A stretch of DNA of 64,000 nt from an uncultured Acidobacteriota bacterium (GTDB lineage Bacteria; Acidobacteriota; UBA6911; RPQK01): the NCBI GenBank assembly GCA_964421755.1, contig CAYQYP010000368.1, positions 39,352-103,351 of the forward strand, in the 5' to 3' direction. The notes beneath the pieces were generated by a model that had not been told where the DNA came from, did not search any database, and saw only the letters and a list, made by a program, of their open reading frames with translations. Below, in pieces: positions 9,682 through 49,090 of this stretch (positions are counted from its first letter, which is position 1; the number at the start of each line of letters is the position of its first letter). The position numbers and the translations under genes are program-made.

Positions 9682-10110
9682 ATGTCAAGACTGGCTTCAT
9701 TATTCACGATTCTGGTTGTTTCGACCGCCTGGCTGGTTGGTCAAACCGACTGGGAAAAAACCCGCAGCATCGCGGAGGCGCAGCATGAGATCGTCATGCT
9801 GGCCATTAAGAATAAGCAGTACGACAAAGTCCTGCCCAATTCCAAGAAAATCTTCGCGTTGACGTTCCCGGCCAACCGCGAGCACCTCTTGGTAGACCAC
9901 GCCAAGCTGTCAAGCAGTCTCCTGGTTGAGCAGGCCAACTACCCCCTCGCCCACCAGATCGTGGACGAAGCGATAAAAGTGGTCCACAACAACAAGTCCA
10001 AAGCCGCCCTCCTCAAGGAAAAAGCCGTTATCTGCAGTCGCGAGGGGCACGATGGCGACGCTATGAAGTTCTTCGAACAAGCGGTTAAACTTGAGGAAGG
10101 AAAACCGTAG
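9682..10110 (+). CDS. Secreted helical/TPR-like protein
   Basis: Signal peptide; C-terminal TPR-like KEKAVICSREGHDGDAMKFFEQAVKLE; 4 nt after the anti-sigma gene. Confidence 0.65.
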   Translation: MSRLASLFTILVVSTAWLVGQTDWEKTRSIAEAQHEIVMLAIKNKQYDKVLPNSKKIFALTFPANREHLLVDHAKLSSSLLVEQANYPLAHQIVDEAIKVVHNNKSKAALLKEKAVICSREGHDGDAMKFFEQAVKLEEGKP

Positions 10111-10161
10111 CGCGGCTTCGAGCAGCCCGGCAGCCACAGCAGGGGCGGTTCAGCCGCCCCT
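10107..10161. repeat. Two GTAG/GCAG-led REP-like hairpins
   Basis: GTAGCGCGGCTTCGAGCAGCCCG overlapping the stop codon, and AGGGGCGG-TTCAG-CCGCCCCT (8-bp stem, 10141-10161). Confidence 0.5.
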
Positions 10162-10167
10162 CAAGCT

Positions 10168-11793
10168 ATGAAAACAAAACAGCCCGGGCAATCTTCCCTC
10201 CGGACCGATCGCAAAAGCGAATTCAAAACGGTTTCGGGTAAGGTCATCCAACCACTCTACTCCCAGGAAACACTCGGTCAGGTGGACTATGCCCAGGAAC
10301 TGGGCGATCCCGGCCAGTTTCCTTTCACACGAGGCATCTACCCGAGCATGTACCGGGGAAGGCTCTGGACCATGCGCCAGTTCTCGGGGTTCGGGACACC
10401 GGAAGAGACAAACCAACGCTTCAAGTACCTCCTGACGCACGGACAGACAGGGCTTTCTGTTGCCTTTGATCTCCCCACCCTGATGGGCCTAGATTCGGAC
10501 GACGGACTCTCAACCGGCGAGGTGGGTAAATGCGGGGTCGCCGTTGATTCGCTGGAAGATATGCTGATCCTCTTCGACGGGATCCGGCTGGACGAGGTCA
10601 GTGTCTCGATGACGATCAACGCCCCGGCGCCCGTTCTGCTGGCAATGTATATCGCCGTCGCCGAAAAGCAGGGCGTACCGGCCGATCAGCTTCGCGGAAC
10701 TCTGCAGGCGGACATCCTGAAGGAATACATCGCGCAAAAGGAATGGATCTACCCACCCGAGCCATCGATGCGCCTGGTGGTCGACACCATCGAGTACTGC
10801 TCGGCCAATCTTCCGCTGTACAACAGCATTTCGATTAGCGGCTATCACATCAGAGAAGCCGGGTCGACCGCAGTCCAGGAGCTTGCTTTTACCCTCCGGG
10901 ACGGAATCGAATACGCGGATTGGTGTCTGCAGAGGGGCATGCAGGTCGACGAGTTTGCACCCCGGCTCTCGTTTTTCTTCAACTGCCACAACGACTTCTT
11001 CGAAGAAGTCGCGAAATTCCGGGCCGCCCGCCGCCTCTGGGCGCGAACGATGAAAGAACGGTTCGGGGCGCGCAACGAGAAGTCCCTCATGTGTCGCTTC
11101 CACACCCAGACGGCGGGTTGCAGTCTGACCGCCCAGCAGCCTTACAACAACATCATCCGGACGACCATTCAAGCGCTGGCCGCAGTGGTGGGCGGAACCA
11201 ACTCGCTTCATACCAACTCGCTGGATGAAGCGCTCGCCCTTCCGACCGAACAGGCCGCGCGAATCGCCCTGAGGACACAGCAGATCATCGCTCATGAAAG
11301 CGGAGTGACCAACACGCCCGACCCTCTTGGAGGCTCGTATTTCGTCGAAACCTTGACGGAAGAGACAGAACAGGCCGCCGAGGAGTACTTCCGAATCATC
11401 GATGCCATGGGCGGCATGGTGAACGCGATCGAAAGGGGCTTTCCACAGACGGAGATTCAGGAGGCCTCATACCAGTACCAGAGAGCGGTCGAAAGCAAGG
11501 AGCAGATTGTCGTCGGAGTCAACGAGTTCGTCAGTTCGGACGACCAAGGCCCGGAGATCCTGCAGATCGGACGGCAGGCCGAGGAGGCGCAGATCAGACG
11601 GTTGCGGGAAGTGCGGAGTCAACGGGACTCGCAGGCCGTAGAATCGAACCTGGATACGTTGAAGCGAGCAGCTGAAACGACCGCCAACCTGATGCCGTTA
11701 CTTCTCGATTGCGTCAGGAGCTACGCCACTATTGGAGAGATCTGCGGAACACTCAAGGAAGTCTTTGGAACTTATACGGAGCCGGAATTCTAG
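10168..11793 (+). CDS. icmA: B12-dependent acyl-CoA mutase large subunit, isobutyryl-CoA mutase (IcmA)-like
   Basis: [45 protein letters not shown]; no B12-binding domain in this chain. Confidence 0.75.
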
Positions 11794-30951: not shown

Positions 30952-31014
30952 ACTAGAAGGGATTATACGGGATAGGGATGGCTTTTCCGTCCGAAGTTTG
31001 TGACAGGTGCAGGA

Positions 31015-31023
31015 TGCTATAAT
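31015..31023 (+). promoter_or_regulatory. Extended -10 promoter for purFMN
   Basis: TGcTATAAT, about 90 nt upstream of purF. Confidence 0.6.
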
Positions 31024-31113
31024 AGTGGCCTTCCTAACGGCTGGATGATCAACAAGAAACCAGTCCGTTTGCTCTCGGTAAAAACGCGAACCCAAGGGAG
31101 GCGACGGAGGGTC

Positions 31114-32598
31114 ATGTCATCAGGAGCCCTTAAGGACCAGGACTGGTACGACATAGACGAGGATAAGTTCCGCGATGAATGCGGCGTTTTTGGAATTGCG
31201 CGCAGCGAGGAGGCATCGCGCCTGACTTACCTCGGGCTGTACGGGCTGCAGCATCGCGGGCAGGAGTCCGCAGGTATCGTAACCTCGGACGGTTCCAGGC
31301 TGCACCATCACAAAGGGATGGGGTACGTTTCGGACGTCTTCGACAGCCAGCGGATCGCCTCGCTACCAGGTGACAGCGCCATCGGACATGTCCGGTACTC
31401 CACGACAGGCAGCAGTATTGTCGCGAACGCGCAGCCGATCCTCACCGAGTCATGGCGGGGCCCGATGGCGGTCGCCCACAATGGGAACCTGGTCAATGTC
31501 AGCCAGATCCGCCAAAGGCTGGAAAGTGACGGCGCAATCTTCCAGTCAACCAGCGATACCGAAGTGATCCTACACCTGCTGGCCCGCTGTCCGCTCCACG
31601 ACTTCGACGCCGCCCTAAAGAATGTGCTGTCGTACGTTCATGGTGCGTTTTCGCTCGTATTGCTGACCCCCAGAACCCTGTATGCAGTGCGCGACCCGTT
31701 CGGCGTGCGACCGCTCTGCCTCGGCCGCCTCGGCGAAGCATTCGTGGTTGCATCGGAGACGTGCGCTTTTGACCTTCTGGGCGTGGAATACATCCGAGAC
31801 GTCCTGCCCGGCGAGATTCTGCGAATCCAAGACGGGGAGCTGCGTTCCGCGTTCCTGCCCACTGCGCCGCGTACCGCCCACTGCATATTTGAGCATGTCT
31901 ACTTCAGCCGGCCGGACAGTAAGGTCTTTGAGCGAAGCGTCCACAAAAGTCGGTACAAGATGGGGAGGCAATTAGCCAAGGAAGCTCCGGTGGAGGCCGA
32001 ACTCGTCGTGCCGGTGCCGGACTCGGGAGTCACCGCCGCCCTTGGGTATTCCGACGAGTCAGGAGTGCCGTTTACGATGGGGCTCGTTCGGAACCATTAC
32101 GTCGGGCGGACCTTTATTCAGCCTTCGCCTTCGATCCGGCATTTCGGAGTCCGCGTGAAGCTGAACCCCGTCAAGGAACTGCTGAGGAACAAGAGAATCA
32201 TTCTGATCGACGACTCAATCGTCCGCGGCACAACCAGTCAGAAAATTGTGGACATGGTGCGGTCAGCCGGTGCCCGGGAAGTTCACTTCAGGATCAGCTC
32301 GCCGCCCACCATCGCGCCCTGCTACTACGGCATCGATACACCGACTTACCGGGAACTGATCGCCGCCCAAAAAAGCGTGGAGGAGATTCGCCAGTTTGTC
32401 GGAGCCGACACCCTCGCATACCTTTCCCTCGAGGGGATGAAAGCGGCGGTCGGCGATCGTGGAGACTTCTGCTCCGCCTGTTTCGATGAACAATACCCAA
32501 TTACTGTGGGGGGCGAACACCGCCAGAAGGAGTTGTTCAGTCTTCAGGAGCTTCGCCGCTCAGAGCAGCTTGTGAGCAAAGAAAAGAACACGGACTAA
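31114..32598 (+). CDS. purF: Amidophosphoribosyltransferase (propeptide and Fe-S type)
   Basis: DECGVFG, LQHRGQESAG, HNGNL, CIFEHVYF, DDSIVRGTT, FCSAC; GGAGG RBS. Confidence 0.97.
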   Translation: MSSGALKDQDWYDIDEDKFRDECGVFGIARSEEASRLTYLGLYGLQHRGQESAGIVTSDGSRLHHHKGMGYVSDVFDSQRIASLPGDSAIGHVRYSTTGSSIVANAQPILTESWRGPMAVAHNGNLVNVSQIRQRLESDGAIFQSTSDTEVILHLLARCPLHDFDAALKNVLSYVHGAFSLVLLTPRTLYAVRDPFGVRPLCLGRLGEAFVVASETCAFDLLGVEYIRDVLPGEILRIQDGELRSAFLPTAPRTAHCIFEHVYFSRPDSKVFERSVHKSRYKMGRQLAKEAPVEAELVVPVPDSGVTAALGYSDESGVPFTMGLVRNHYVGRTFIQPSPSIRHFGVRVKLNPVKELLRNKRIILIDDSIVRGTTSQKIVDMVRSAGAREVHFRISSPPTIAPCYYGIDTPTYRELIAAQKSVEEIRQFVGADTLAYLSLEGMKAAVGDRGDFCSACFDEQYPITVGGEHRQKELFSLQELRRSEQLVSKEKNTD

Positions 32599-32653
32599 GA
32601 CGGTTCACCGGTTCAACGGCGGGGGAATTCAGTATCATATCCCCCGAAACTCT

Positions 32654-33676
32654 ATGAAATACAGCGACAGCGGAGTAGACATCGACCGATCCAACGAGGC
32701 CAAACGAAGAATCAAGGAGCTCGTCCGCTCCACGTACAACCAGGCGGTCGTAGGAGACATTGGCGCTTTCGGCGGTATGTTCAGGCCGGATTTCCTCAAC
32801 TTTCAAAAACCGGTTCTTGTGGCCAGCGTCGATGGAGTGGGCACCAAGCTGAAAGTCGCCTTCATGTCCGGCATTCACAACACGGTCGGCGTCGACCTGG
32901 TGTCACACTGCACCGACGATATTCTCGTGCAGGGCGCCCTCCCTCTATTCTTCCTGGACTATATCGCGACCGGGAGAGTCGAACCACAGGTCATCGGAGA
33001 ATTGGTGGCGGGACTGGCGGAAGGGTGCAGGCAGTCACAGTGCGCCCTGATCGGCGGCGAAACGGCGGAAATGCCTGATTTCTACCAACCGGGTGAATAC
33101 GACGTGGCTGGCTTCATCATTGGCGTCGTGGACGAATCGAAGATCCTGGGTCCTGCCAGGGTGCAAGAGGGAGATGTCCTGATTGCTCTTGCCTCAAGCG
33201 GTCTCCACACCAACGGGTATTCCCTGGTTCGAAAGCTCTTCTTCGAGCAGGAGCATCTGGCCGTCGACTCCTATGTTCCGGCTCTCGGCAAGACGGTGGC
33301 CGAGGAATTGCTCACCCCGCACAGGAACTATCTGCCGCTTTTGCGAGAACTGGTTCACAGCGACGATCTGCACGCCATGGCTCACATCACCGGGGGCGGA
33401 ATCACCGAGAACCTGGACAGGGCGCTCCCTCCACACCTGGACGCGGCCGTTAAGCGCGGTACCTGGGAGGTGCTCCCGATCTTCCGCTTCATTCGCGAGC
33501 GGGGATCAATCGAAGACAGCGAGATGTATCGCACCTTCAACATGGGGGTTGGCATGGTCCTCGTAGCGGATCGAAACCGGATCGAGCGAGTCGAGGACTA
33601 CCTGCGCAACCGCAACGAGCAGTACTACTTGATCGGTGAGATCACCGAAGGCGCGGGCAAGGTCAGGTACGTATGA
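32654..33676 (+). CDS. purM: AIR synthetase
   Basis: Y..SGVDID, DGVGTKL, PLFFLDY, GGETAEMP, SSGLHTNGYSL, HITGGG. Confidence 0.98.
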   Translation: MKYSDSGVDIDRSNEAKRRIKELVRSTYNQAVVGDIGAFGGMFRPDFLNFQKPVLVASVDGVGTKLKVAFMSGIHNTVGVDLVSHCTDDILVQGALPLFFLDYIATGRVEPQVIGELVAGLAEGCRQSQCALIGGETAEMPDFYQPGEYDVAGFIIGVVDESKILGPARVQEGDVLIALASSGLHTNGYSLVRKLFFEQEHLAVDSYVPALGKTVAEELLTPHRNYLPLLRELVHSDDLHAMAHITGGGITENLDRALPPHLDAAVKRGTWEVLPIFRFIRERGSIEDSEMYRTFNMGVGMVLVADRNRIERVEDYLRNRNEQYYLIGEITEGAGKVRYV

Positions 33677-34341
33677 AAAAAGTAGCCATTTTGCTCAGCG
33701 GCAGGGGCTCAAACTTCCGTGCCTTATCGGACGCGATAGACCAGGGGCGGATTCCAGCCAAAATCGCCCTGGTGATTTCCAACCGCCCAGAGGCTCCCGG
33801 TCTCCAGTACGCTCGTGACCGGGGTTTCAAGAGCGTCTGCATCCCCTCGGCCGGAATGGACAGGGAAGCCTTTGACCGGTTGATGGCCCGCGAGATCGAC
33901 GCGGAAGCCATTGACTTCATCTGCCTCGCCGGGTTCATGCGGATTCTCAGTTCCTGGTTCGTCCAACGCTATCCGCTCAGGATCTTGAACATCCATCCTT
34001 CCTTGCTGCCTGCTTTTCCCGGCGTCCATGCCCAGCGACAGGCCCTTCTGTGGGGAGCCAAGGTGACGGGGTGCACCGTTCATTTTGTGGACGAGGAGCT
34101 GGATCACGGTCCGATCATCGTCCAGTTCCCCGTTCCGGTCCTGGAGGGCGACACCGAGGATACGCTCTCCGATCGCATCCTTGTCCATGAGCACGAGATC
34201 TACCCTGACGCGCTCAAAATCGTTTGCGAAGAACGATATCGAATCGAGGGACGCCGGCTCATCATCAAACCCGAAGACGTCGACGTAGGGCCGACACCGA
34301 AGTCGGACATGCCTCTCGGAAGTGAAATTCACGACGTCTAG
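33673..34341 (+). CDS. purN: Phosphoribosylglycinamide formyltransferase
   Basis: SGRGSN, LAGFMRIL, NIHPSLLP.F.G, GCTVHFV..ELDHGPII. Confidence 0.97.
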   Translation: MKKVAILLSGRGSNFRALSDAIDQGRIPAKIALVISNRPEAPGLQYARDRGFKSVCIPSAGMDREAFDRLMAREIDAEAIDFICLAGFMRILSSWFVQRYPLRILNIHPSLLPAFPGVHAQRQALLWGAKVTGCTVHFVDEELDHGPIIVQFPVPVLEGDTEDTLSDRILVHEHEIYPDALKIVCEERYRIEGRRLIIKPEDVDVGPTPKSDMPLGSEIHDV

Positions 34342-44525: not shown

Positions 44526-45413
44526 ATGGGTTCAGCCGGAGTGAACAGGCGGGAGTTTCTGCGAACCTCAACGGTTGCCGCCGCGGTGGCGCCACTAATC
44601 AGTCGAAATGCCGCGGCAGCTGGTGCGGGTGAGATCAAAAAAGCCGTCTTGATCGGGATGCTTCCCAAGCAGCTCAGCTACCTGGAGCGTTTCACCCTCG
44701 CGAAGCGGGTCGGGTTCGAGGGTCTGGAGACCCAGACAGTCACCGAGCCGGGCATCGTGCAGGAAATTAAGGAAGCGGCCGCACAGGCTGGGTTGAAGAT
44801 CCATTCAGTGATGAACATGGACCACTGGAAGTATCCGCTCTCGAGTGCCGACCCCAAGGTTGTGGATCAGAGCGTCAAGGGGATGGAGACCTCGCTCCGA
44901 AACGCCAAAGACTGGGGCGCGGACGTCGTGCTTCTGGTGCCTGCGGTCGTCAACCCGGAAACCAGCTATAAGGACGCGTACACTCGGTCGCAGAAGCGAG
45001 TCAGAGACATGATCCCCCTCGCCAAAGAGCTCGGGGTGGTGATCGGGATTGAAGAGGTATGGAACAAGTTCCTACTCAGCCCGATCGAGTTTGCCCGGTA
45101 TATAGACGAGCTCGACAGCCCATGGGTGAAAGCCTATTTCGACGTGGGGAACGTCGTGCTGTTCGGGTATCCGGAAGACTGGATTCGAACACTCGGCAAA
45201 CGGATCGTCAAGCTGCACCTGAAAGACTTCAAATCCGAAACGAAGCAGTTCGTCCCGCTACGGGAAGGAAGTGTGAACTGGGTGCAGGTCCGAAAGGCGA
45301 TTGACGAGGTGGGCTTCAAGGGCTTTGCAACCGTGGAGCTCGAGGGCGGCGACGAGGCGTATCTTCGCGAAGTGAGCGCCCGCGTCGACAAAATAATCGC
45401 TGGCGCCAGCTAA
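44526..45413 (+). CDS. Tat-exported xylose-isomerase-like TIM-barrel sugar isomerase/epimerase
   Basis: NRREFL twin-arginine signal; IEEVWNKFL, YFDVGN, HLKDF, EGSVNW; GAGGAGG RBS. Confidence 0.85.
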   Translation: MGSAGVNRREFLRTSTVAAAVAPLISRNAAAAGAGEIKKAVLIGMLPKQLSYLERFTLAKRVGFEGLETQTVTEPGIVQEIKEAAAQAGLKIHSVMNMDHWKYPLSSADPKVVDQSVKGMETSLRNAKDWGADVVLLVPAVVNPETSYKDAYTRSQKRVRDMIPLAKELGVVIGIEEVWNKFLLSPIEFARYIDELDSPWVKAYFDVGNVVLFGYPEDWIRTLGKRIVKLHLKDFKSETKQFVPLREGSVNWVQVRKAIDEVGFKGFATVELEGGDEAYLREVSARVDKIIAGAS

Positions 45414-45424
45414 GAAAAAGAACC

Positions 45425-45490
45425 GACAGGATTAACACGATTCACAGGATTCGCAGGATTCAAAATCCTGTTAATCCTGTGAATCCTGTC
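45425..45490. repeat. 9-mer ACAGGATT/AATCCTGT inverted tandem repeat
   Basis: Four units at 45426-45461 and three inverse units at 45464-45490. Confidence 0.88.
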
Positions 45491-45629
45491 CACTCTCTTT
45501 GTTTTTGCCTGCCTCCGGCAGGCGACAACTGTTCGACATTCACGTTTGAACGCCAAACCGCGGCAGCACCCAACGCATCAGGATGAGATAGACGACCAGA
45601 AAAGCAATAACAATAATAAAGTCCATGGT

Positions 45630-46247
45630 TTACTGCACCCACTTCTGGAGCTCGGCCTTCAGGACTGCGGTGTCCCATTTGACACCGATCTTAAGATCTC
45701 TCGCCTGCATAAATAGGGTCGGTTCCGGTGGCTGCTCCCGCCACTGCAGGTGCGGTTTATACATGACCAGCATGTCCCACGCGAATTCCTCCGGCGGCGA
45801 GTATTTCAACTGGTCCGTGAGAACCTTGCTGGTGAATCTCCACAGATCCCAGTAATGCTCGGCTCGCGGATCCGGAAGATAGGCGGACGCTTCGACTGCA
45901 CGAAGGCGCGTGTCAGCACCCATGATCGGCGTCCACATGACGAATACCTTGACCTTTGCTTGCGGTAACTGGTTCAGAACTGATCGAATTTCGGAGGCCC
46001 CCCGAACACAGTGCGGTCAAGTCGGGGCTAAGATCGTCACGATCCGGGCACGGTCCGCCGAAGCGTTGAACGAGCTGATGAACTCAGCACCATTGAAGGC
46101 GAGCGACGAAACGACCTGCGGCTGACCGGGAGGCAGCATCTCGGGCACTTGCTGTTTGGGTGCCTCCAGTTTCGGGCGCGCAGGAACTTGTTGTGGAACT
46201 GCCTGGGGGAGCAACAACATCAGTAAGAGCGAGAACACCCATTCCAT
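45630..46247 (-). CDS. Secreted thioredoxin-fold selenoprotein (UxxC), about 205 aa with Sec at codon 77
   Basis: ORFs 46017..46295 and 45630..45938 are in frame across TGA 46019-46017, giving ILAPT-U-PHC-VRGA; signal peptide; SECIS-like hairpin follows. Confidence 0.85.
45990..46006 (-). promoter_or_regulatory. Bacterial SECIS-like hairpin
   Basis: UUCGGG-GGGCC-UCCGAA, with a G-first loop starting 17 nt after the UGA. Confidence 0.65.
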
Positions 46248-46288: not shown

Positions 46289-49006
46289 CTACCAAGCCGG
46301 CCCGAAGAATACGGCGTTCAACACCAGCAGATGCAATCCATCACAGAATGCCCGGAAACTCGGATCCTCTGAAAAGGCCACCACGTGACCGGATCCAAGC
46401 GGCTGATGGATGAGATAGGCCTTTTCCGCCAGCTGCCTGGTGGACTCAGGCCAGCTGTAGCCTGACAGCAGCAGTTTGTCCTCGGGCATGTACAGGCCTA
46501 CGTTTTGGCCCTTGTCGAGCTTGATCGGGGTAAAGATGTTCCGGCTCTGGACCAGGACGTTCGCGTCCCCATCGTAACCGAAAGCGAGCCAGTGCTCCGT
46601 GTCCAGCTTTACCCGCAGTATGGCCCCCGGCGTCACTTCGGGTAGTTCCTTTTCTGGTTGAATAGCCTTTTCCAGATCGAACGGTCGGCTTTCGGGCGGC
46701 TGTTTCTGGGCCTCCGGAGCCTTGCCATCCGCGTCAACCGGTTCTTTGGCGGGTTCGGCCGGGCGTTTTTCACCGCTACTTCCTCGAAATTCTCTCGAGC
46801 TGGCCAGCAGATCAACCTTCTCTTCGGTCAACCAGCGAGTCGCTTCCCCCATGGTTACAAGCGTTCCACCCGCCGAAATCCAGTCCTTGAGTCTGCGCAC
46901 CGCCTCGTCTCCGAAAATCGCAGAATAGCCGGCCCGCGAATCCGGGAGTACCAGCACGTCGTACTTTTGCAGCCGCGCGTTGCGAAGGCCCTGCGCATGC
47001 ACGATGGTGACAGGAACGGCGTACACCTGCTCGAGGAGGAATCGCAGTGCCCCGGCCGAAGCCGATGACGTCGGGGTGTTGTAGGCGAGCAGGACTTTGG
47101 GTTTCTTGACGTACTGTACGTGTCCGCTGCCGAAATTGATGCCTTGGTCAACCCATCCGGTGTCGGTTGAGTAGATATCCACGCCGCATTCCGAGCTGAC
47201 CTGCCCCATCAGGTCGTGCAGCTTGTCGGGGTTGCCGTTCACCTTTACGATAAGCGTTCCAGCCGGAAAGCTGGTCGCCCTCTGAACGAACGACTTGCCG
47301 GCTGAATAGACGCGCACATCTTCGGCGAGCAACCGGGAGAGCGCGCGTGCCGAGGAATCACCCGTCCAGGGGATGAGGTATGCCAGGGTGGCTTTGCCAC
47401 CGATCACCTTGCCTTGGTATCGAGGCGCAGCCGCAAGGATTTCCAAACGGGCTTTCGTTTCCTCTTCGGCTGCGAAGCAGTCAACGTCGTAGAGGAGAGG
47501 CAGTGACCAGGCGGTTATGTCATAGAATTCGTCGTCCAGGCGCTTCTTCCTGCGACGTTCCTGTTCCTTTATGAAATCCGCTTCGATTACCGTGTGCCTG
47601 GACAAAAGCGTGGATGCCAGCGCTTTGGCTGGCTGGGCCAGGGACACCACGTAGCTGCCTGCTGGGAACTCGCGAGCTTGCAGGGAGTCTCCGTAGAAAT
47701 CCTTCACTTTGGAATTCTTGAACGGCTCCTCCGCGCGTTTGACCTCGACGCCCTGAGCTATCAAATTCGCGGCCAGCTTCGCTGCCCGGGAAGGGTTCCT
47801 TTGCGGATCGATTATGTACTCGAGCACGGGCCCTTTTCTGCCCGATTCGATTGCTCCCTGGCGCGTGGCATGAAAGTACTTCAGCAGTTCCAGGCGATTC
47901 TTTGCAGCCGTCTCGACGGTTGCGAGCGAGGCAATGAAATGATGCTGGATCGCCTCGCGGTAATGGAGCAGTGTTTCGTCCTCTTTGCGCACGAGCAACC
48001 CTCGGGTCGACGCCTGCTCGAAGGTCATCCCGATGGACCCGTGAAACATGGGCCACCCTTCCCCGTACCCCGGGTAGAAGGAATCGAATACTTCCCGAGT
48101 GAAGTAATCGAAGTGCATTTTGTCGAACCACGCAGCGTTGTTCTTGCCGAACTGAACAAGCCAGTGGTTTTGCTCGCTGGTGAACTCAGGATTGAGCGGA
48201 GGCGCCGGGGGCGCGAAATAATACGTCGAGTCGGCCCCCATCTCGTGTAAGTCGACAAAGACCTGCGGGAACCAGGACAGATAGGCTTTCACACGCCCCT
48301 GGGTCTCAGGCTGCGTCAGTGCGAACCAATCCCGGTTCATGTCGAACAGGTAATGATTGGACCGTCCGCCAGGCCACGGTTCGTTGTGCTCGGCCGCTTC
48401 CTGGCTTTCATCCGGCCAGCGCCCGCGCGTCTGCCTGAAATAGCTGACGAACCGTTCGCGGCCGTCCGGGTTCTGAAGGGGATCGACAATGACAACGGCA
48501 TTTTCAAGGGCCAGTTGAGCCAGGGGATCGTCCTTGGCCGCGACGAGATGATAGACAGTAAGAAGTGCCGCCTCGGGGCTCGAGATCTCGTTCCCGTGAA
48601 CGCCGTAGCCCAACCACACGCAGACGGGCAGGGATTTGAGCAGTCTGTCCGCCTCACCTGAGGACAGCCGGTCCGGCCGGGCGAGCTTTTGAAGCCCTTC
48701 TTGTATTTGCGCCACCCGACCGATATTGGCCTGCGATGAAACGACGATATAGTGCAGGGGACGCTTCTCCCACGTCTCGCCGTACTTGACCAACTGCACT
48801 CGAGGCGAGGCTTTTGCCAGGGCCGCCATGTACGTCTCAATGCCTCGAGGATCCGTGATGTCTTCGCCCCAATCGTAGCCCATCACCTGCTTGAGCGTTG
48901 GAATGGAAGGGTCGTAGGAGGTCCCGGGGTAAAAATCAAAGCCGACAGCCTGATGGGTCAGCAGGCCGAACCATATCGCAAGCAGCAACGGGATTCTTGT
49001 TCGCAT
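46289..49006 (-). CDS. Secreted M14 zinc carboxypeptidase with a C-terminal GATase-like domain
   Basis: Signal peptide; GVHGNE, RSNHYLFDMNRDW, VDLHEMG. Confidence 0.88.
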   Translation of the reverse strand: MRTRIPLLLAIWFGLLTHQAVGFDFYPGTSYDPSIPTLKQVMGYDWGEDITDPRGIETYMAALAKASPRVQLVKYGETWEKRPLHYIVVSSQANIGRVAQIQEGLQKLARPDRLSSGEADRLLKSLPVCVWLGYGVHGNEISSPEAALLTVYHLVAAKDDPLAQLALENAVVIVDPLQNPDGRERFVSYFRQTRGRWPDESQEAAEHNEPWPGGRSNHYLFDMNRDWFALTQPETQGRVKAYLSWFPQVFVDLHEMGADSTYYFAPPAPPLNPEFTSEQNHWLVQFGKNNAAWFDKMHFDYFTREVFDSFYPGYGEGWPMFHGSIGMTFEQASTRGLLVRKEDETLLHYREAIQHHFIASLATVETAAKNRLELLKYFHATRQGAIESGRKGPVLEYIIDPQRNPSRAAKLAANLIAQGVEVKRAEEPFKNSKVKDFYGDSLQAREFPAGSYVVSLAQPAKALASTLLSRHTVIEADFIKEQERRRKKRLDDEFYDITAWSLPLLYDVDCFAAEEETKARLEILAAAPRYQGKVIGGKATLAYLIPWTGDSSARALSRLLAEDVRVYSAGKSFVQRATSFPAGTLIVKVNGNPDKLHDLMGQVSSECGVDIYSTDTGWVDQGINFGSGHVQYVKKPKVLLAYNTPTSSASAGALRFLLEQVYAVPVTIVHAQGLRNARLQKYDVLVLPDSRAGYSAIFGDEAVRRLKDWISAGGTLVTMGEATRWLTEEKVDLLASSREFRGSSGEKRPAEPAKEPVDADGKAPEAQKQPPESRPFDLEKAIQPEKELPEVTPGAILRVKLDTEHWLAFGYDGDANVLVQSRNIFTPIKLDKGQNVGLYMPEDKLLLSGYSWPESTRQLAEKAYLIHQPLGSGHVVAFSEDPSFRAFCDGLHLLVLNAVFFGPAW

Positions 49007-49090
49007 AGGCAGCAGGAGTCTAGCGGCTACGAGCGCCGATTTCAACAACTGCGCCTGCTTTGGCCCCTTAGAGGTTTCATCCGAAAAGCG

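What the first reader, a model, noticed from the sequence alone, without database searches (positions are those of the whole stretch)
45630..46247. Hidden secreted UxxC selenoprotein with a SECIS
Two called ORFs are one reading frame interrupted by TGA exactly at the first position of a thioredoxin-like CxxC (LAPT-U-PHC-VRGA). A hairpin UUCGGG-GGGCC-UCCGAA has its G-first loop at +17, within the bacterial SECIS window. The protein has a signal peptide, so it would be an exported selenoprotein, and it lies directly downstream of a secreted M14 peptidase. It implies selABCD elsewhere in the genome.
Basis: partly seen in the sequence, partly recalled or inferred. Interest (0 to 1): 0.85.

Follow-up and report, generated by a model that had tools for sequence, protein, structure and literature searches.

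The report
Exported thioredoxin-fold selenoprotein, unannotated family
Two small "hypothetical" ORFs in this Acidobacteriota window are really one gene for an exported thioredoxin-like redox protein whose active-site cysteine is replaced by selenocysteine (UGA plus a conserved RNA hairpin). The protein belongs to a family that public annotation splits or truncates and that no protein-family model covers.

Summary
On the minus strand, 46247..45630 is one 205-codon frame with a single in-frame TGA (46019..46017) at the first position of xxxC (LAPT-U-PHC).

Evidence that the UGA encodes selenocysteine:
- Six independent metagenome contigs carry the identical sequence, so it is not a sequencing error.
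- Relatives in about 100 Acidobacteriota or metagenome loci carry either TGA (never TAA or TAG) or TGC/TGT at this codon.
- Every TGA form has a 7-bp hairpin with a GGC (once GGU) loop 17 nt after the UGA. Three of its pairs show compensatory changes.
- The hairpin is 99% paired in TGA forms and 50% in Cys forms, which encode the same LRGA residues with other codons.
- Both halves of the gene are under similar purifying selection, and TGA is an ordinary stop in other window genes.

An AlphaFold model (pLDDT 92) is a thioredoxin fold of the TlpA/ResA/Sco/GPx type, with Sec at the nucleophilic position. All family members have N-terminal signal-like segments.

No Pfam or NCBIfam model reaches threshold, including the models cited for known selenoprotein families. 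Public names are "hypothetical", "DsbA family" and similar.

Not shown: the Sec machinery (none in the window) and the substrate. The M14 neighbour is conserved only in the closest clade. This is a new family of a well-known kind.

The parts
45630..46247 (-). Complete selenoprotein gene: ATG at 46247, 205 codons including Sec77, stop TAA at 45632..45630
   Evidence: Single frame with one internal TGA. Full-length Cys homologues are 48-64% identical over both halves. pN/pS is 0.09-0.33 both upstream and downstream of the TGA.
46188..46247 (-). N-terminal signal-like segment MEWVFSLLLMLLLPQAVPQQ, followed by a Pro/Lys/Gln-rich linker. Cleavage site not determined.
   Evidence: Hydrophobic h-region of about 11 residues. 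Every family member has an equivalent, many with a classical n-region and an AXA-like site such as VEA|Q or ALA|S. The linker has low pLDDT in the model. Inspection only; no predictor was run.
46017..46019 (-). UGA read as selenocysteine (Sec77)
   Evidence: TGA in 36 of 51 loci and in 37 real metagenome loci (a 38th regex match, L110, is spurious). Never TAA or TAG; otherwise TGC or TGT. Identical in 6 independent contigs.
46008..46019 (-). Redox motif U-P-H-C (Sec77...Cys80), preceded by the family signature (S/A)-P-T
   Evidence: P75, T76, C77 and C80 are invariant in A2. The motif aligns with the CGHC of protein disulfide isomerase. In the model the first position lies between strand 58-63 and helix 68-83, the canonical thioredoxin-fold nucleophile site.
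45990..46006 (-). bSECIS-type hairpin UUCGGGG-GGC-CUCCGAA, lying inside codons V81-E86
   Evidence: 7 pairs, 99.1% canonical in 33 distinct Sec forms against 50% in 10 Cys forms. Three pairs show compensatory double changes, and no register shift does as well. In every Sec form the first two loop bases are G; the third is C, or U in L063. Spacing is 17 nt.
46289..49048 (-). Upstream M14 zinc carboxypeptidase-family gene, 41 nt away on the same strand and probably co-transcribed. Context only, not a family-wide partner.
   Evidence: PF00246, E 1.9e-16. It is conserved upstream only in the closest clade: L001, L003-L006, L009.
45540..45626 (-). 28-codon hydrophobic ORF (MDFIIVIAFLVVYLILMRWVLPRFGVQT) starting 4 nt after the selenoprotein stop
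   Evidence: Conserved at the same place in L003, L005, L006, L007 and L009, with motif LM(R/K)WVLP(R/K)xG(V/I)(Q/S)T. No Pfam hit. Whether it belongs to the system is unknown.

Best explanation
The locus is one gene for an exported (most likely periplasmic) thioredoxin-fold selenol/thiol-disulfide oxidoreductase.

Shown from sequence and comparison: the mRNA carries UGA at codon 77, followed 17 nt later by a 7-bp hairpin with a GGC loop, embedded in the codons for (L/V/I)RGA(S/L)E.

Inferred from the established bacterial pathway: this hairpin acts as a bacterial SECIS. It would recruit SelB.GTP.Sec-tRNA(Sec) to the ribosome paused at the UGA, so that selenocysteine is inserted and translation continues for another 128 codons.

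The product has an N-terminal Sec-pathway-type signal segment and a flexible Pro/Lys-rich linker. Its roughly 165-residue thioredoxin-like domain is of the TlpA/ResA/DsbE/Sco/GPx structural class. The selenol sits at the N-cap of the active-site helix, the attacking position, and Cys80 is the resolving residue.

The PH/GH dipeptide resembles those of DsbA (CPHC) and PDI (CGHC). The enzyme would therefore exchange a selenenylsulfide with substrate thiols or disulfides in the cell envelope.

The substrate is unknown. The family belongs to a much larger uncharacterised 'SPTCxxC' thioredoxin-like superfamily, often fused to heavy-metal-associated (HMA) domains. A role in keeping metal-binding or other envelope cysteines in the right redox state is therefore the leading guess. 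Sec forms occupy all major clades of the Acidobacteriota subfamily, with Cys forms nested at least four times.

The confidence given applies to the core claim (a genuine Sec-encoding UGA with a bSECIS in an exported thioredoxin-fold protein), not to the guessed substrate.
For: - Continuous frame with a single TGA.
- Identical TGA in six independent assemblies from different samples.
- 36 of 51 loci and 37 further metagenome loci have TGA, never TAA or TAG. The remainder have TGC or TGT.
- All called full-length database proteins are Cys forms, and about 21 clusters of 100-126 aa are 3' fragments of Sec forms.
- Hairpin: 7 pairs, 3 with compensatory changes (G-C to A-U in 8 sequences, C-G to G-C, G-C to A-U). 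93.9% of cells pair against 28-70% for slid registers, and 0 of 500 shuffles reach the covariation score.
- The core is 99.1% paired in Sec forms and 50% in Cys forms. Cys forms with the same LRGA residues use codons (CTC CGG GGA GCG) that destroy the hairpin.
- This was replicated on an independent metagenome sample: 7 of 7 pairs in every real TGA locus, 1-6 in Cys loci.
- The element meets the published bSECIS constraints: loop 3-9 nt, G in the first two loop positions with the pattern N1-G-[G/U]-N-N2, and spacing 16-37 nt (PMC13188914).
- pN/pS is about 0.1-0.3 on both sides of the TGA.
- TGA is a normal stop for 5 of 19 domain-supported genes in the window, so the recoding is local.
- AF2 model: pLDDT 92.2, pTM 0.83. 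Foldseek hits with probability 1.0 include ScoI, GPX8, M. tuberculosis DsbE and DsbF, ResA and TlpA. The profile aligns PtCphC to the PWCGHC of PDI.
- Signal-like N-termini occur throughout the family.
- The Sec trait is documented in Acidobacteria/Acidobacteriota (PMC1794560; PMC12013277; PMC13582414).
Against: - No selA, selB, selD or tRNA-Sec was found in the 64-kb window or in about 0.9 Mb of related flanks. Presence of the machinery in this genome is therefore unverified.
- The hairpin alone is marginal: -6.7 to -7.5 kcal/mol, z-score not significant, an alternative local fold has lower energy, and 6.6% of random TGAs do as well.
- No Rfam match.
- No protein-level evidence of any kind.
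- Export was inferred by eye. In the window's own clade the signal lacks a basic n-region and a clear AXA site, so it could be an uncleaved anchor.
- Function and substrate are inferred from fold and motif only, and no conserved gene partner was found.
Confidence: 0.88

Rival explanations
1. The UGA is recoded or read through, but not as selenocysteine. Possible routes are near-cognate Trp or Cys insertion, or a hairpin-stimulated read-through that needs no SelB.
For: The Sec machinery could not be demonstrated for this genome. The hairpin is short and only borderline by the bSECIS energy criterion.
Against: The codon alternates only with Cys codons, at the nucleophilic position of a CxxC motif. 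That is the signature of Sec/Cys pairs. The G-rich loop and the spacing match the SelB-dependent bSECIS model. The phylum is known to decode Sec. Trp would destroy the redox motif.
Confidence: 0.05
2. The TGA is a true stop. The locus is then either a pseudogene or two separate small genes, a 76-aa secreted peptide and a 102-aa protein, as current gene callers annotate it.
For: Public gene calls split it this way. The 102-aa ORF has its own ATG.
Against: The stop would cut a thioredoxin fold inside its active site. The same TGA, and never another stop codon, is kept in about 70 diverged loci, with purifying selection on both sides. A covarying hairpin follows it. Cys forms are contiguous. The downstream start codons used by gene callers are not conserved in position: the truncated calls begin at different residues.
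Confidence: 0.03
3. A sequencing or assembly error turned TGC or TGT into TGA.
For: None beyond the prior possibility.
Against: The 618-nt sequence is identical, TGA included, in six contigs from six samples. TGA is also present in dozens of diverged relatives.
Confidence: 0.005

Closest known systems
[quoted passage not shown]
   Same: The Sec/Cys pair sits at the first position of a CxxC motif in a thioredoxin fold. A bSECIS lies directly after the UGA inside the coding region. The N-terminus carries an export signal. The proteins are predicted from sequence only.
   Different: None of these models matches. NF041057 gives E 0.21 in 1 of 24 members, PF01323 gives E 0.28 in 1 of 24, and PF13098 and PF08534 give nothing. 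There is no lipobox cysteine. The signature is (S/A)PT-U/C-xxC together with invariant WDLW, AWD and PxPT motifs. The subfamily was found only in Acidobacteriota MAGs, one of them labelled Aminicenantes.
TlpA / ResA / DsbE(CcmG) / M. tuberculosis DsbE-DsbF periplasmic thiol-disulfide oxidoreductases and Sco1/SenC copper chaperones
   Same: These are the best structural matches (Foldseek probability 1.0; TM normalised to the target 0.46-0.66). They are extracytoplasmic and have a CxxC or CxxxC motif at the N-cap of the first long helix. Distant relatives of the window protein are fused to HMA metal-binding domains, echoing the TlpA-Sco copper pathway.
   Different: Sequence identity is only 7-19% and no Pfam family threshold is reached. 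The PH/GH dipeptide is like those of DsbA and PDI, not TlpA or ResA. There is a larger insertion between the two halves of the fold, and the nucleophile is selenocysteine.
E. coli fdhF-type bacterial SECIS and the consensus bSECIS model (bSECISearch)
   Same: The hairpin starts 10 nt after the UGA inside the ORF. The loop starts 17 nt after the UGA, within the 16-37 nt range. The small apical loop has G G in its first positions, closed by G-C (pattern N1-G-[G/U]-N-N2).
   Different: The element is much shorter, with 7-8 bp and no bulged U or long lower helix. It is at the extreme short end of the spacing range, and its energy is only at the -7.5 kcal/mol threshold. Binding to SelB is untested.

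Membership tests
Bacterial selenoprotein gene (Sec-UGA plus bSECIS) | In-frame UGA with coding sequence conserved on both sides | tested here: met
   pN/pS is 0.09-0.33 on both sides.
Bacterial selenoprotein gene (Sec-UGA plus bSECIS) | Cys-containing homologues with Cys aligned to the UGA, and UGA-containing homologues in other organisms | tested here: met
   36 TGA and 15 TGC/TGT among the genome and first-look loci. 37 real TGA and 13 TGC/TGT loci in metagenomes. No TAA or TAG.
Bacterial selenoprotein gene (Sec-UGA plus bSECIS) | [quoted passage not shown] | tested here: met
   7-bp stem, GGC loop, 17-nt spacing. Energy is -7.5 with dangles for the window (borderline) and -7.5 to -10.3 in all but one relative (-6.0 in L037). 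Covariation. Model constraints quoted from PMC13188914.
Bacterial selenoprotein gene (Sec-UGA plus bSECIS) | selA, selB, selC (tRNA-Sec) and selD present in the same genome | not testable with these tools
   Absent from the 64-kb window and the flanks. Whole genomes could not be fetched. Only phylum-level precedent exists.
Bacterial selenoprotein gene (Sec-UGA plus bSECIS) | Selenium actually incorporated at the UGA position | not testable with these tools
   Needs 75Se labelling or mass spectrometry.
Thioredoxin-fold CxxC oxidoreductase (structural superfamily) | Thioredoxin fold with the CxxC motif at the N-terminus of the helix that follows a central beta-strand | tested here: met
   AF2 pLDDT 92 with strand 58-63, C67xxC70, helix 68-83. 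Foldseek hits to Sco, GPx, DsbE/F, ResA and TlpA. A PxPT motif lies before a late strand, consistent with the cis-Pro loop, but this was judged from sequence position only.
Pfam Thioredoxin (PF00085), Thioredoxin_4, Redoxin and AhpC-TSA sequence families | Score above the curated gathering threshold | tested here: not met
   Best result is PF00085 at E 0.0077 (window protein 13.4 bits against a cutoff of 23.5).
DsbA family (the name given to P0045 in NCBI) | Match to PF01323 / NF047695, and an inserted helical domain after the active-site helix | tested here: not met
   PF01323 gives E 0.28 in 1 of 24 members and NF047695 gives E 0.079 in 2 of 24. The model's secondary structure alternates helices and strands rather than showing a four-helix insert. 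Top structural matches are not DsbA.
Known selenoprotein families with NCBIfam models (those in PMC13188914 Table 1, e.g. NF041057, NF041383, NF040730, NF047660, NF045500) | Match to the family model | tested here: not met
   An NCBIfam release 20.0 scan of 24 members found nothing below E 0.01. NF041057 gave E 0.21 and TIGR02187 gave E 0.26, each in one member.
Sec-pathway exported protein | N-terminal signal peptide (n, h and c regions) | tested here: inconclusive
   A hydrophobic N-terminal segment is present in all members, and many are classical. The window's clade lacks a basic n-region and a clear cleavage site. No SignalP-type tool was available.

The most novel reading that the evidence does not exclude
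This may be the selenocysteine-bearing branch of a large, undescribed 'SPTCxxC' thioredoxin-like superfamily of the cell envelope. That superfamily has about 2,200 clusters at 50% identity, no Pfam or NCBIfam model, and frequent fusions to HMA metal-binding domains or to secreted hydrolases. In Acidobacteriota, Sec would be the ancestral state, and the protein would define a new periplasmic selenium-dependent redox pathway. That pathway might service metal-binding (Cu or Hg) cysteines or exported peptidases, and it might act together with the conserved 28-residue membrane peptide encoded next to it.
Probability: 0.2. Interest if true: 0.65.

Novelty: new member of a known kind. Interest (0 to 1): 0.5.

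Why it matters
Bacterial selenoproteins are systematically mis-annotated. Here one gene is split into a 76-aa and a 102-aa "hypothetical protein" in every public record seen, and NCBI entries for relatives are truncated to about 110-120 aa.

Recognising the family has three consequences:
- It adds a selenoprotein family to the roughly 119 catalogued. This one is phylum-wide in Acidobacteriota, abundant soil and sediment bacteria whose selenium use is little studied.
- In the loci sampled, Sec rather than Cys is the majority state.
- It provides a compact, well-conserved bSECIS (7 bp, GGC loop, 17-nt spacing) that could help train selenoprotein gene finders.

It also flags a large thioredoxin-like superfamily without any family model. 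The kind of object itself, a thioredoxin-fold UxxC selenoprotein, is the most common type known, so the advance is incremental rather than conceptual.

Tried and rejected
- Rfam gave nothing, at gathering thresholds on the whole window or at E <= 10 on the 131-nt region.
- The single-sequence folding test was not significant (z 0.23), so thermodynamics alone was rejected as evidence.
The one AIRS-domain gene (32654..33676) is PurM (TIGR00878, E 1e-120), not SelD.
- A scan for a second selenoprotein in the window (164 TGA-joined frame pairs) gave only noise from frames overlapping real genes. It was not pursued.
- A conserved gene partner was sought by clustering ORFs within +/-5 kb of about 48 loci. 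None is family-wide. M14 is clade-specific. In another clade an M19 dipeptidase lies upstream and an HDOD-GGDEF protein downstream.
- The label "DsbA family protein" was rejected.
- The 28-aa downstream ORF has no Pfam match.

Full report
**1. What is in the sequence**

On the minus strand, window 46247..45630 translates as a single frame of 205 codons with one internal stop. That stop is TGA at 46019..46017, in the context ...DRARIVTILAPT-*-PHCVRGASEIR.... The mechanical ORF list shows the two halves as separate ORFs of 92 aa and 102 aa.

Directly after the TGA comes CCGCACUGUG, then UUCGGGG-GGC-CUCCGAA (46006..45990). This is a 7-pair hairpin whose loop starts 17 nt after the UGA.

The gene sits 41 nt downstream of a 919-codon ORF with a Peptidase_M14 domain (E 1.9e-16) on the same strand. 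It is convergent with a xylose-isomerase-like TIM-barrel gene. The window has 59% G+C.

**2. Is it more than chance?**

The hairpin on its own is not.
- Its bare energy is -6.7 kcal/mol, or -7.5 with dangling ends.
- The 58-nt context folds no better than dinucleotide shuffles (z 0.23) and prefers an alternative pairing.
- 6.6% of all 1,922 TGA trinucleotides in the window have an equally good perfect hairpin with a G-first loop 16-37 nt downstream.
- Rfam has no match.

The case therefore rests on comparative data, which are strong.

**3. Relatives**

A first protein search with the U-to-C translation found two full-length Cys homologues, P0001 (LAPTCGHC) and P0002 (FSPTCPHC). It also found a 112-aa protein, P0003. 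The contig carrying P0003 has the same in-frame TGA in LAPT-*-PHCLRGASE, so P0003 is a truncated gene call.

A scan of one genome per species returned 48 loci. All are Acidobacteriota MAGs, one of them labelled Aminicenantes. Together with the first loci and the window:
- 36 carry TGA at this codon.
- 15 carry TGC or TGT.
- None carries TAA or TAG.

An independent scan of JGI and ENA metagenomes gave 37 more real TGA loci and 13 TGC/TGT loci (a 38th TGA match, in L110, is a spurious regex hit outside the motif).

In the protein database, every full-length called member (about 55 clusters) has SPTCxxC. About 21 clusters of 100-126 aa begin downstream of the motif and are 3' fragments of Sec forms. 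Source names are "hypothetical protein", "thiol-disulfide isomerase/thioredoxin" and "DsbA family protein". None mentions selenium.

The window's own 618-nt sequence, TGA included, is identical in six contigs from six samples. Each annotates it as a 76-aa plus a 102-aa gene. A sequencing error is therefore excluded.

**4. The hairpin is selected as RNA**

The region from the UGA to +42 aligns without gaps (A3, 33 distinct Sec forms).
- RNAalifold predicts the same 7 pairs. Three have compensatory double changes: G-C to A-U in 8 sequences, C-G to G-C in 1, and G-C to A-U in 1. The wobble pair is G-U in 22 sequences, G-C in 9 and A-U in 2.
- For the 8-pair version, 93.9% of cells pair, against 28-70% for registers slid by 1-3 columns. 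0 of 500 shuffles reach the observed covariation score.
- The loop bases GGC and the preceding G are invariant in the 33 Sec forms of alignment A3. One later metagenome locus, L063, has GGU instead.
- The seven core pairs are canonical in 99.1% of cells in Sec forms but in 50% in the ten distinct Cys forms. Local energies are -6.0 to -10.3 kcal/mol against -1.8 to -5.1.
- Cys forms that encode the same residues L-R-G-A use CTC CGG GGA GCG. Sec forms use CTT CGG GGG GCC almost invariantly. The conservation is therefore at the nucleotide level and tied to the TGA.
- The metagenome sample reproduces this: 7 of 7 pairs in every real TGA locus and 1-6 in Cys loci.

The element satisfies the published bSECIS constraints. 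These are a 4-16 bp stem, a 3-9 nt loop, G in the first two loop positions with the pattern N1-G-[G/U]-N-N2, spacing of 16-37 nt, and MFE <= -7.5 kcal/mol (PMC13188914). The window's copy is exactly at the energy limit, and the spacing is near its lower bound.

**5. Coding evidence and genetic code**

pN/pS between the window and seven relatives is 0.09-0.33 for the 36 codons upstream of the TGA and 0.10-0.35 for the 70 codons downstream. L009, which has an upstream frameshift, is the exception.

TGA terminates 5 of 19 domain-supported genes in the window. The codon is therefore not reassigned genome-wide.

A neighbour-joining tree places Sec forms in all major clades, with Cys forms nested at four or more places. 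In one clade of 14 loci, Sec and Cys orthologues share the same neighbours. This is the expected picture of Sec/Cys exchange at an orthologous site.

**6. What the protein is**

No Pfam or NCBIfam model reaches threshold for any of 24 members. The best results are Thioredoxin at E 0.0077 and TrbB at E 0.012. NF041057 (Rcas_1661 family (seleno)lipoprotein) gives E 0.21 in one member.

A family profile weakly matches PDI a' domains (E 0.004), aligning PtCphC with PWCGHC.

AlphaFold2 on the Cys homologue P0001 (64% identical to the window protein) with a 49-sequence alignment gives pLDDT 92.2 and pTM 0.83. The model has a disordered N-terminal linker and alternating strands and helices typical of a thioredoxin fold with a central insertion. 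C67, which corresponds to Sec77 of the window, lies between strand 58-63 and helix 68-83. This is the canonical nucleophile position.

Foldseek against the PDB returns B. japonicum ScoI, human GPX8, M. tuberculosis DsbE and DsbF, ResA and the TlpA-ScoI complex. Probability is 1.0, TM normalised to the target is 0.46-0.66, and identity is 7-19%.

Every member begins with a hydrophobic signal-like segment. Many are classical (MKRALILCALLVSQIGSLRS......SFVEA|QN...SALA|SD). The window's clade has M-E/S/T-W followed by about 11 hydrophobic residues and a PKPKLEAP linker. There is no lipobox cysteine.

I therefore read it as an extracytoplasmic selenol/thiol-disulfide oxidoreductase. The direction of the reaction and the substrate are not determined.

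**7. Wider family and context**

An exhaustive profile search finds 2,229 representative clusters at E <= 1e-3, and 1,110 at E <= 1e-10. Most carry (S/A)P(T/S)CxxC with a variable dipeptide.

The longest of the best-scoring hits were then checked:
- Three of the ten scanned are fused to an HMA heavy-metal-associated domain, as are P0075 and P0076.
- Others are fused to an aspartyl protease, to a beta-lactamase-PDZ module, or to an alpha/beta-hydrolase.
- The shared domain itself has no Pfam hit.

The M14 peptidase is upstream only in the closest clade, which includes its Cys member L003. No neighbour is conserved family-wide. The metal-related and peptidase-related ideas are therefore leads, not findings.

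**8. What could not be shown**

There is no tRNA-Sec, SelA, SelB or SelD in the window or in the flanks of related loci. The AIRS-domain gene at 32654..33676 is PurM. Whole genomes could not be retrieved with the scans that remained.

Sec decoding is documented in the phylum:
- 3 families and 4 selenoproteins in Acidobacteria (PMC1794560).
- Occallatibacter riparius with 3 known selenoprotein genes (PMC12013277).
- Acidobacteriota NiFeSe hydrogenases (PMC13582414).

**9. Comparison with what is known, and novelty**

Thioredoxin-fold UxxC proteins are the commonest type of bacterial selenoprotein. Exported examples are already catalogued, including DsbG-like NF041057, DsbA-like, thiol:disulfide interchange and TlpA-like proteins (PMC13188914).

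What is new is the family. None of the family models cited in that catalogue, nor any other NCBIfam or Pfam model, matches it. Public records truncate or split it. The two full-text searches I ran on Acidobacteria/Acidobacteriota selenoproteins, and the review and three papers I then opened, turned up no description of it. I cannot exclude that it is among the unvalidated candidates of Deng et al. 2026 (cited), which I could not read.

**Verdict:** a genuine and well-supported selenoprotein gene. It is a new member of a known kind, of moderate interest.

Noticed in passing
window 45540..45626 (minus strand): A 28-codon hydrophobic ORF (MDFIIVIAFLVVYLILMRWVLPRFGVQT) starts 4 nt after the selenoprotein stop codon. 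It is conserved at the same position in L003, L005, L006, L007 and L009, with a C-terminal motif LM(R/K)WVLP(R/K)xG(V/I)(Q/S)T. It has no Pfam match. JGI calls it as a 28-aa gene.
   Followed up: partly
window 45412..45506: Between the convergent selenoprotein and TIM-barrel genes lies a long imperfect inverted repeat. It is built from 9-nt units (ACAGGATTN, 3-4 copies, facing AATCCTGTN, 3 copies; 40-43 nt arms, 74-80% complementary). It may be a bidirectional terminator or a REP-like element. L001 has a different short-unit repeat (TAGGTCCTA-like) in front of its copy of the gene.
   Followed up: partly
P0075, P0076, P0079, P0092, P0096, P0099, P0107, P0183 (protein ids): The domain belongs to a large superfamily (2,229 clusters at 50% identity with E <= 1e-3) with the signature SPTCxxC and no Pfam or NCBIfam model. 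It is repeatedly fused to HMA heavy-metal-associated domains. It is also fused to an aspartyl protease, a beta-lactamase-PDZ module and an alpha/beta-hydrolase.
   Followed up: partly
L090, L091, L093 (metagenome loci, near the TGC/TGT codon): These Cys forms (LQGASE, CTTCAGGGAGCTTCAGAA) still form 6 of the 7 hairpin pairs. This may be a relic SECIS left by a recent Sec-to-Cys change.
   Followed up: no
L013-L036 and L051 (14 loci): In one clade, Sec-form and Cys-form orthologues share the same neighbourhood: an OmpA/PKD protein and an M19 membrane dipeptidase upstream, and an HDOD-GGDEF protein and an Fe-alcohol dehydrogenase downstream. As in the window, the gene again follows a peptidase.
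   Followed up: partly
L009 (CAVUUN010000025.1), about 10001..10240; L049: In L009 the closest genome-collection relative has its N-terminal part out of frame (an apparent frameshift upstream of the TGA). L049 ends prematurely after about 136 residues. These are probably assembly errors in those MAGs.
   Followed up: no
L053-L058; GAB4108269.1 (P0234): Public gene calls split the window's gene into a 76-aa and a 102-aa ORF in all six metagenome contigs. An NCBI MAG record names a 119-aa truncated Sec-form relative 'hypothetical protein'.
   Followed up: yes
window 31000..34341: A purF-purM-purN cluster. The AIRS-domain gene at 32654..33676, which could be mistaken for selD, is PurM (TIGR00878, E 1e-120).
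   Followed up: yes
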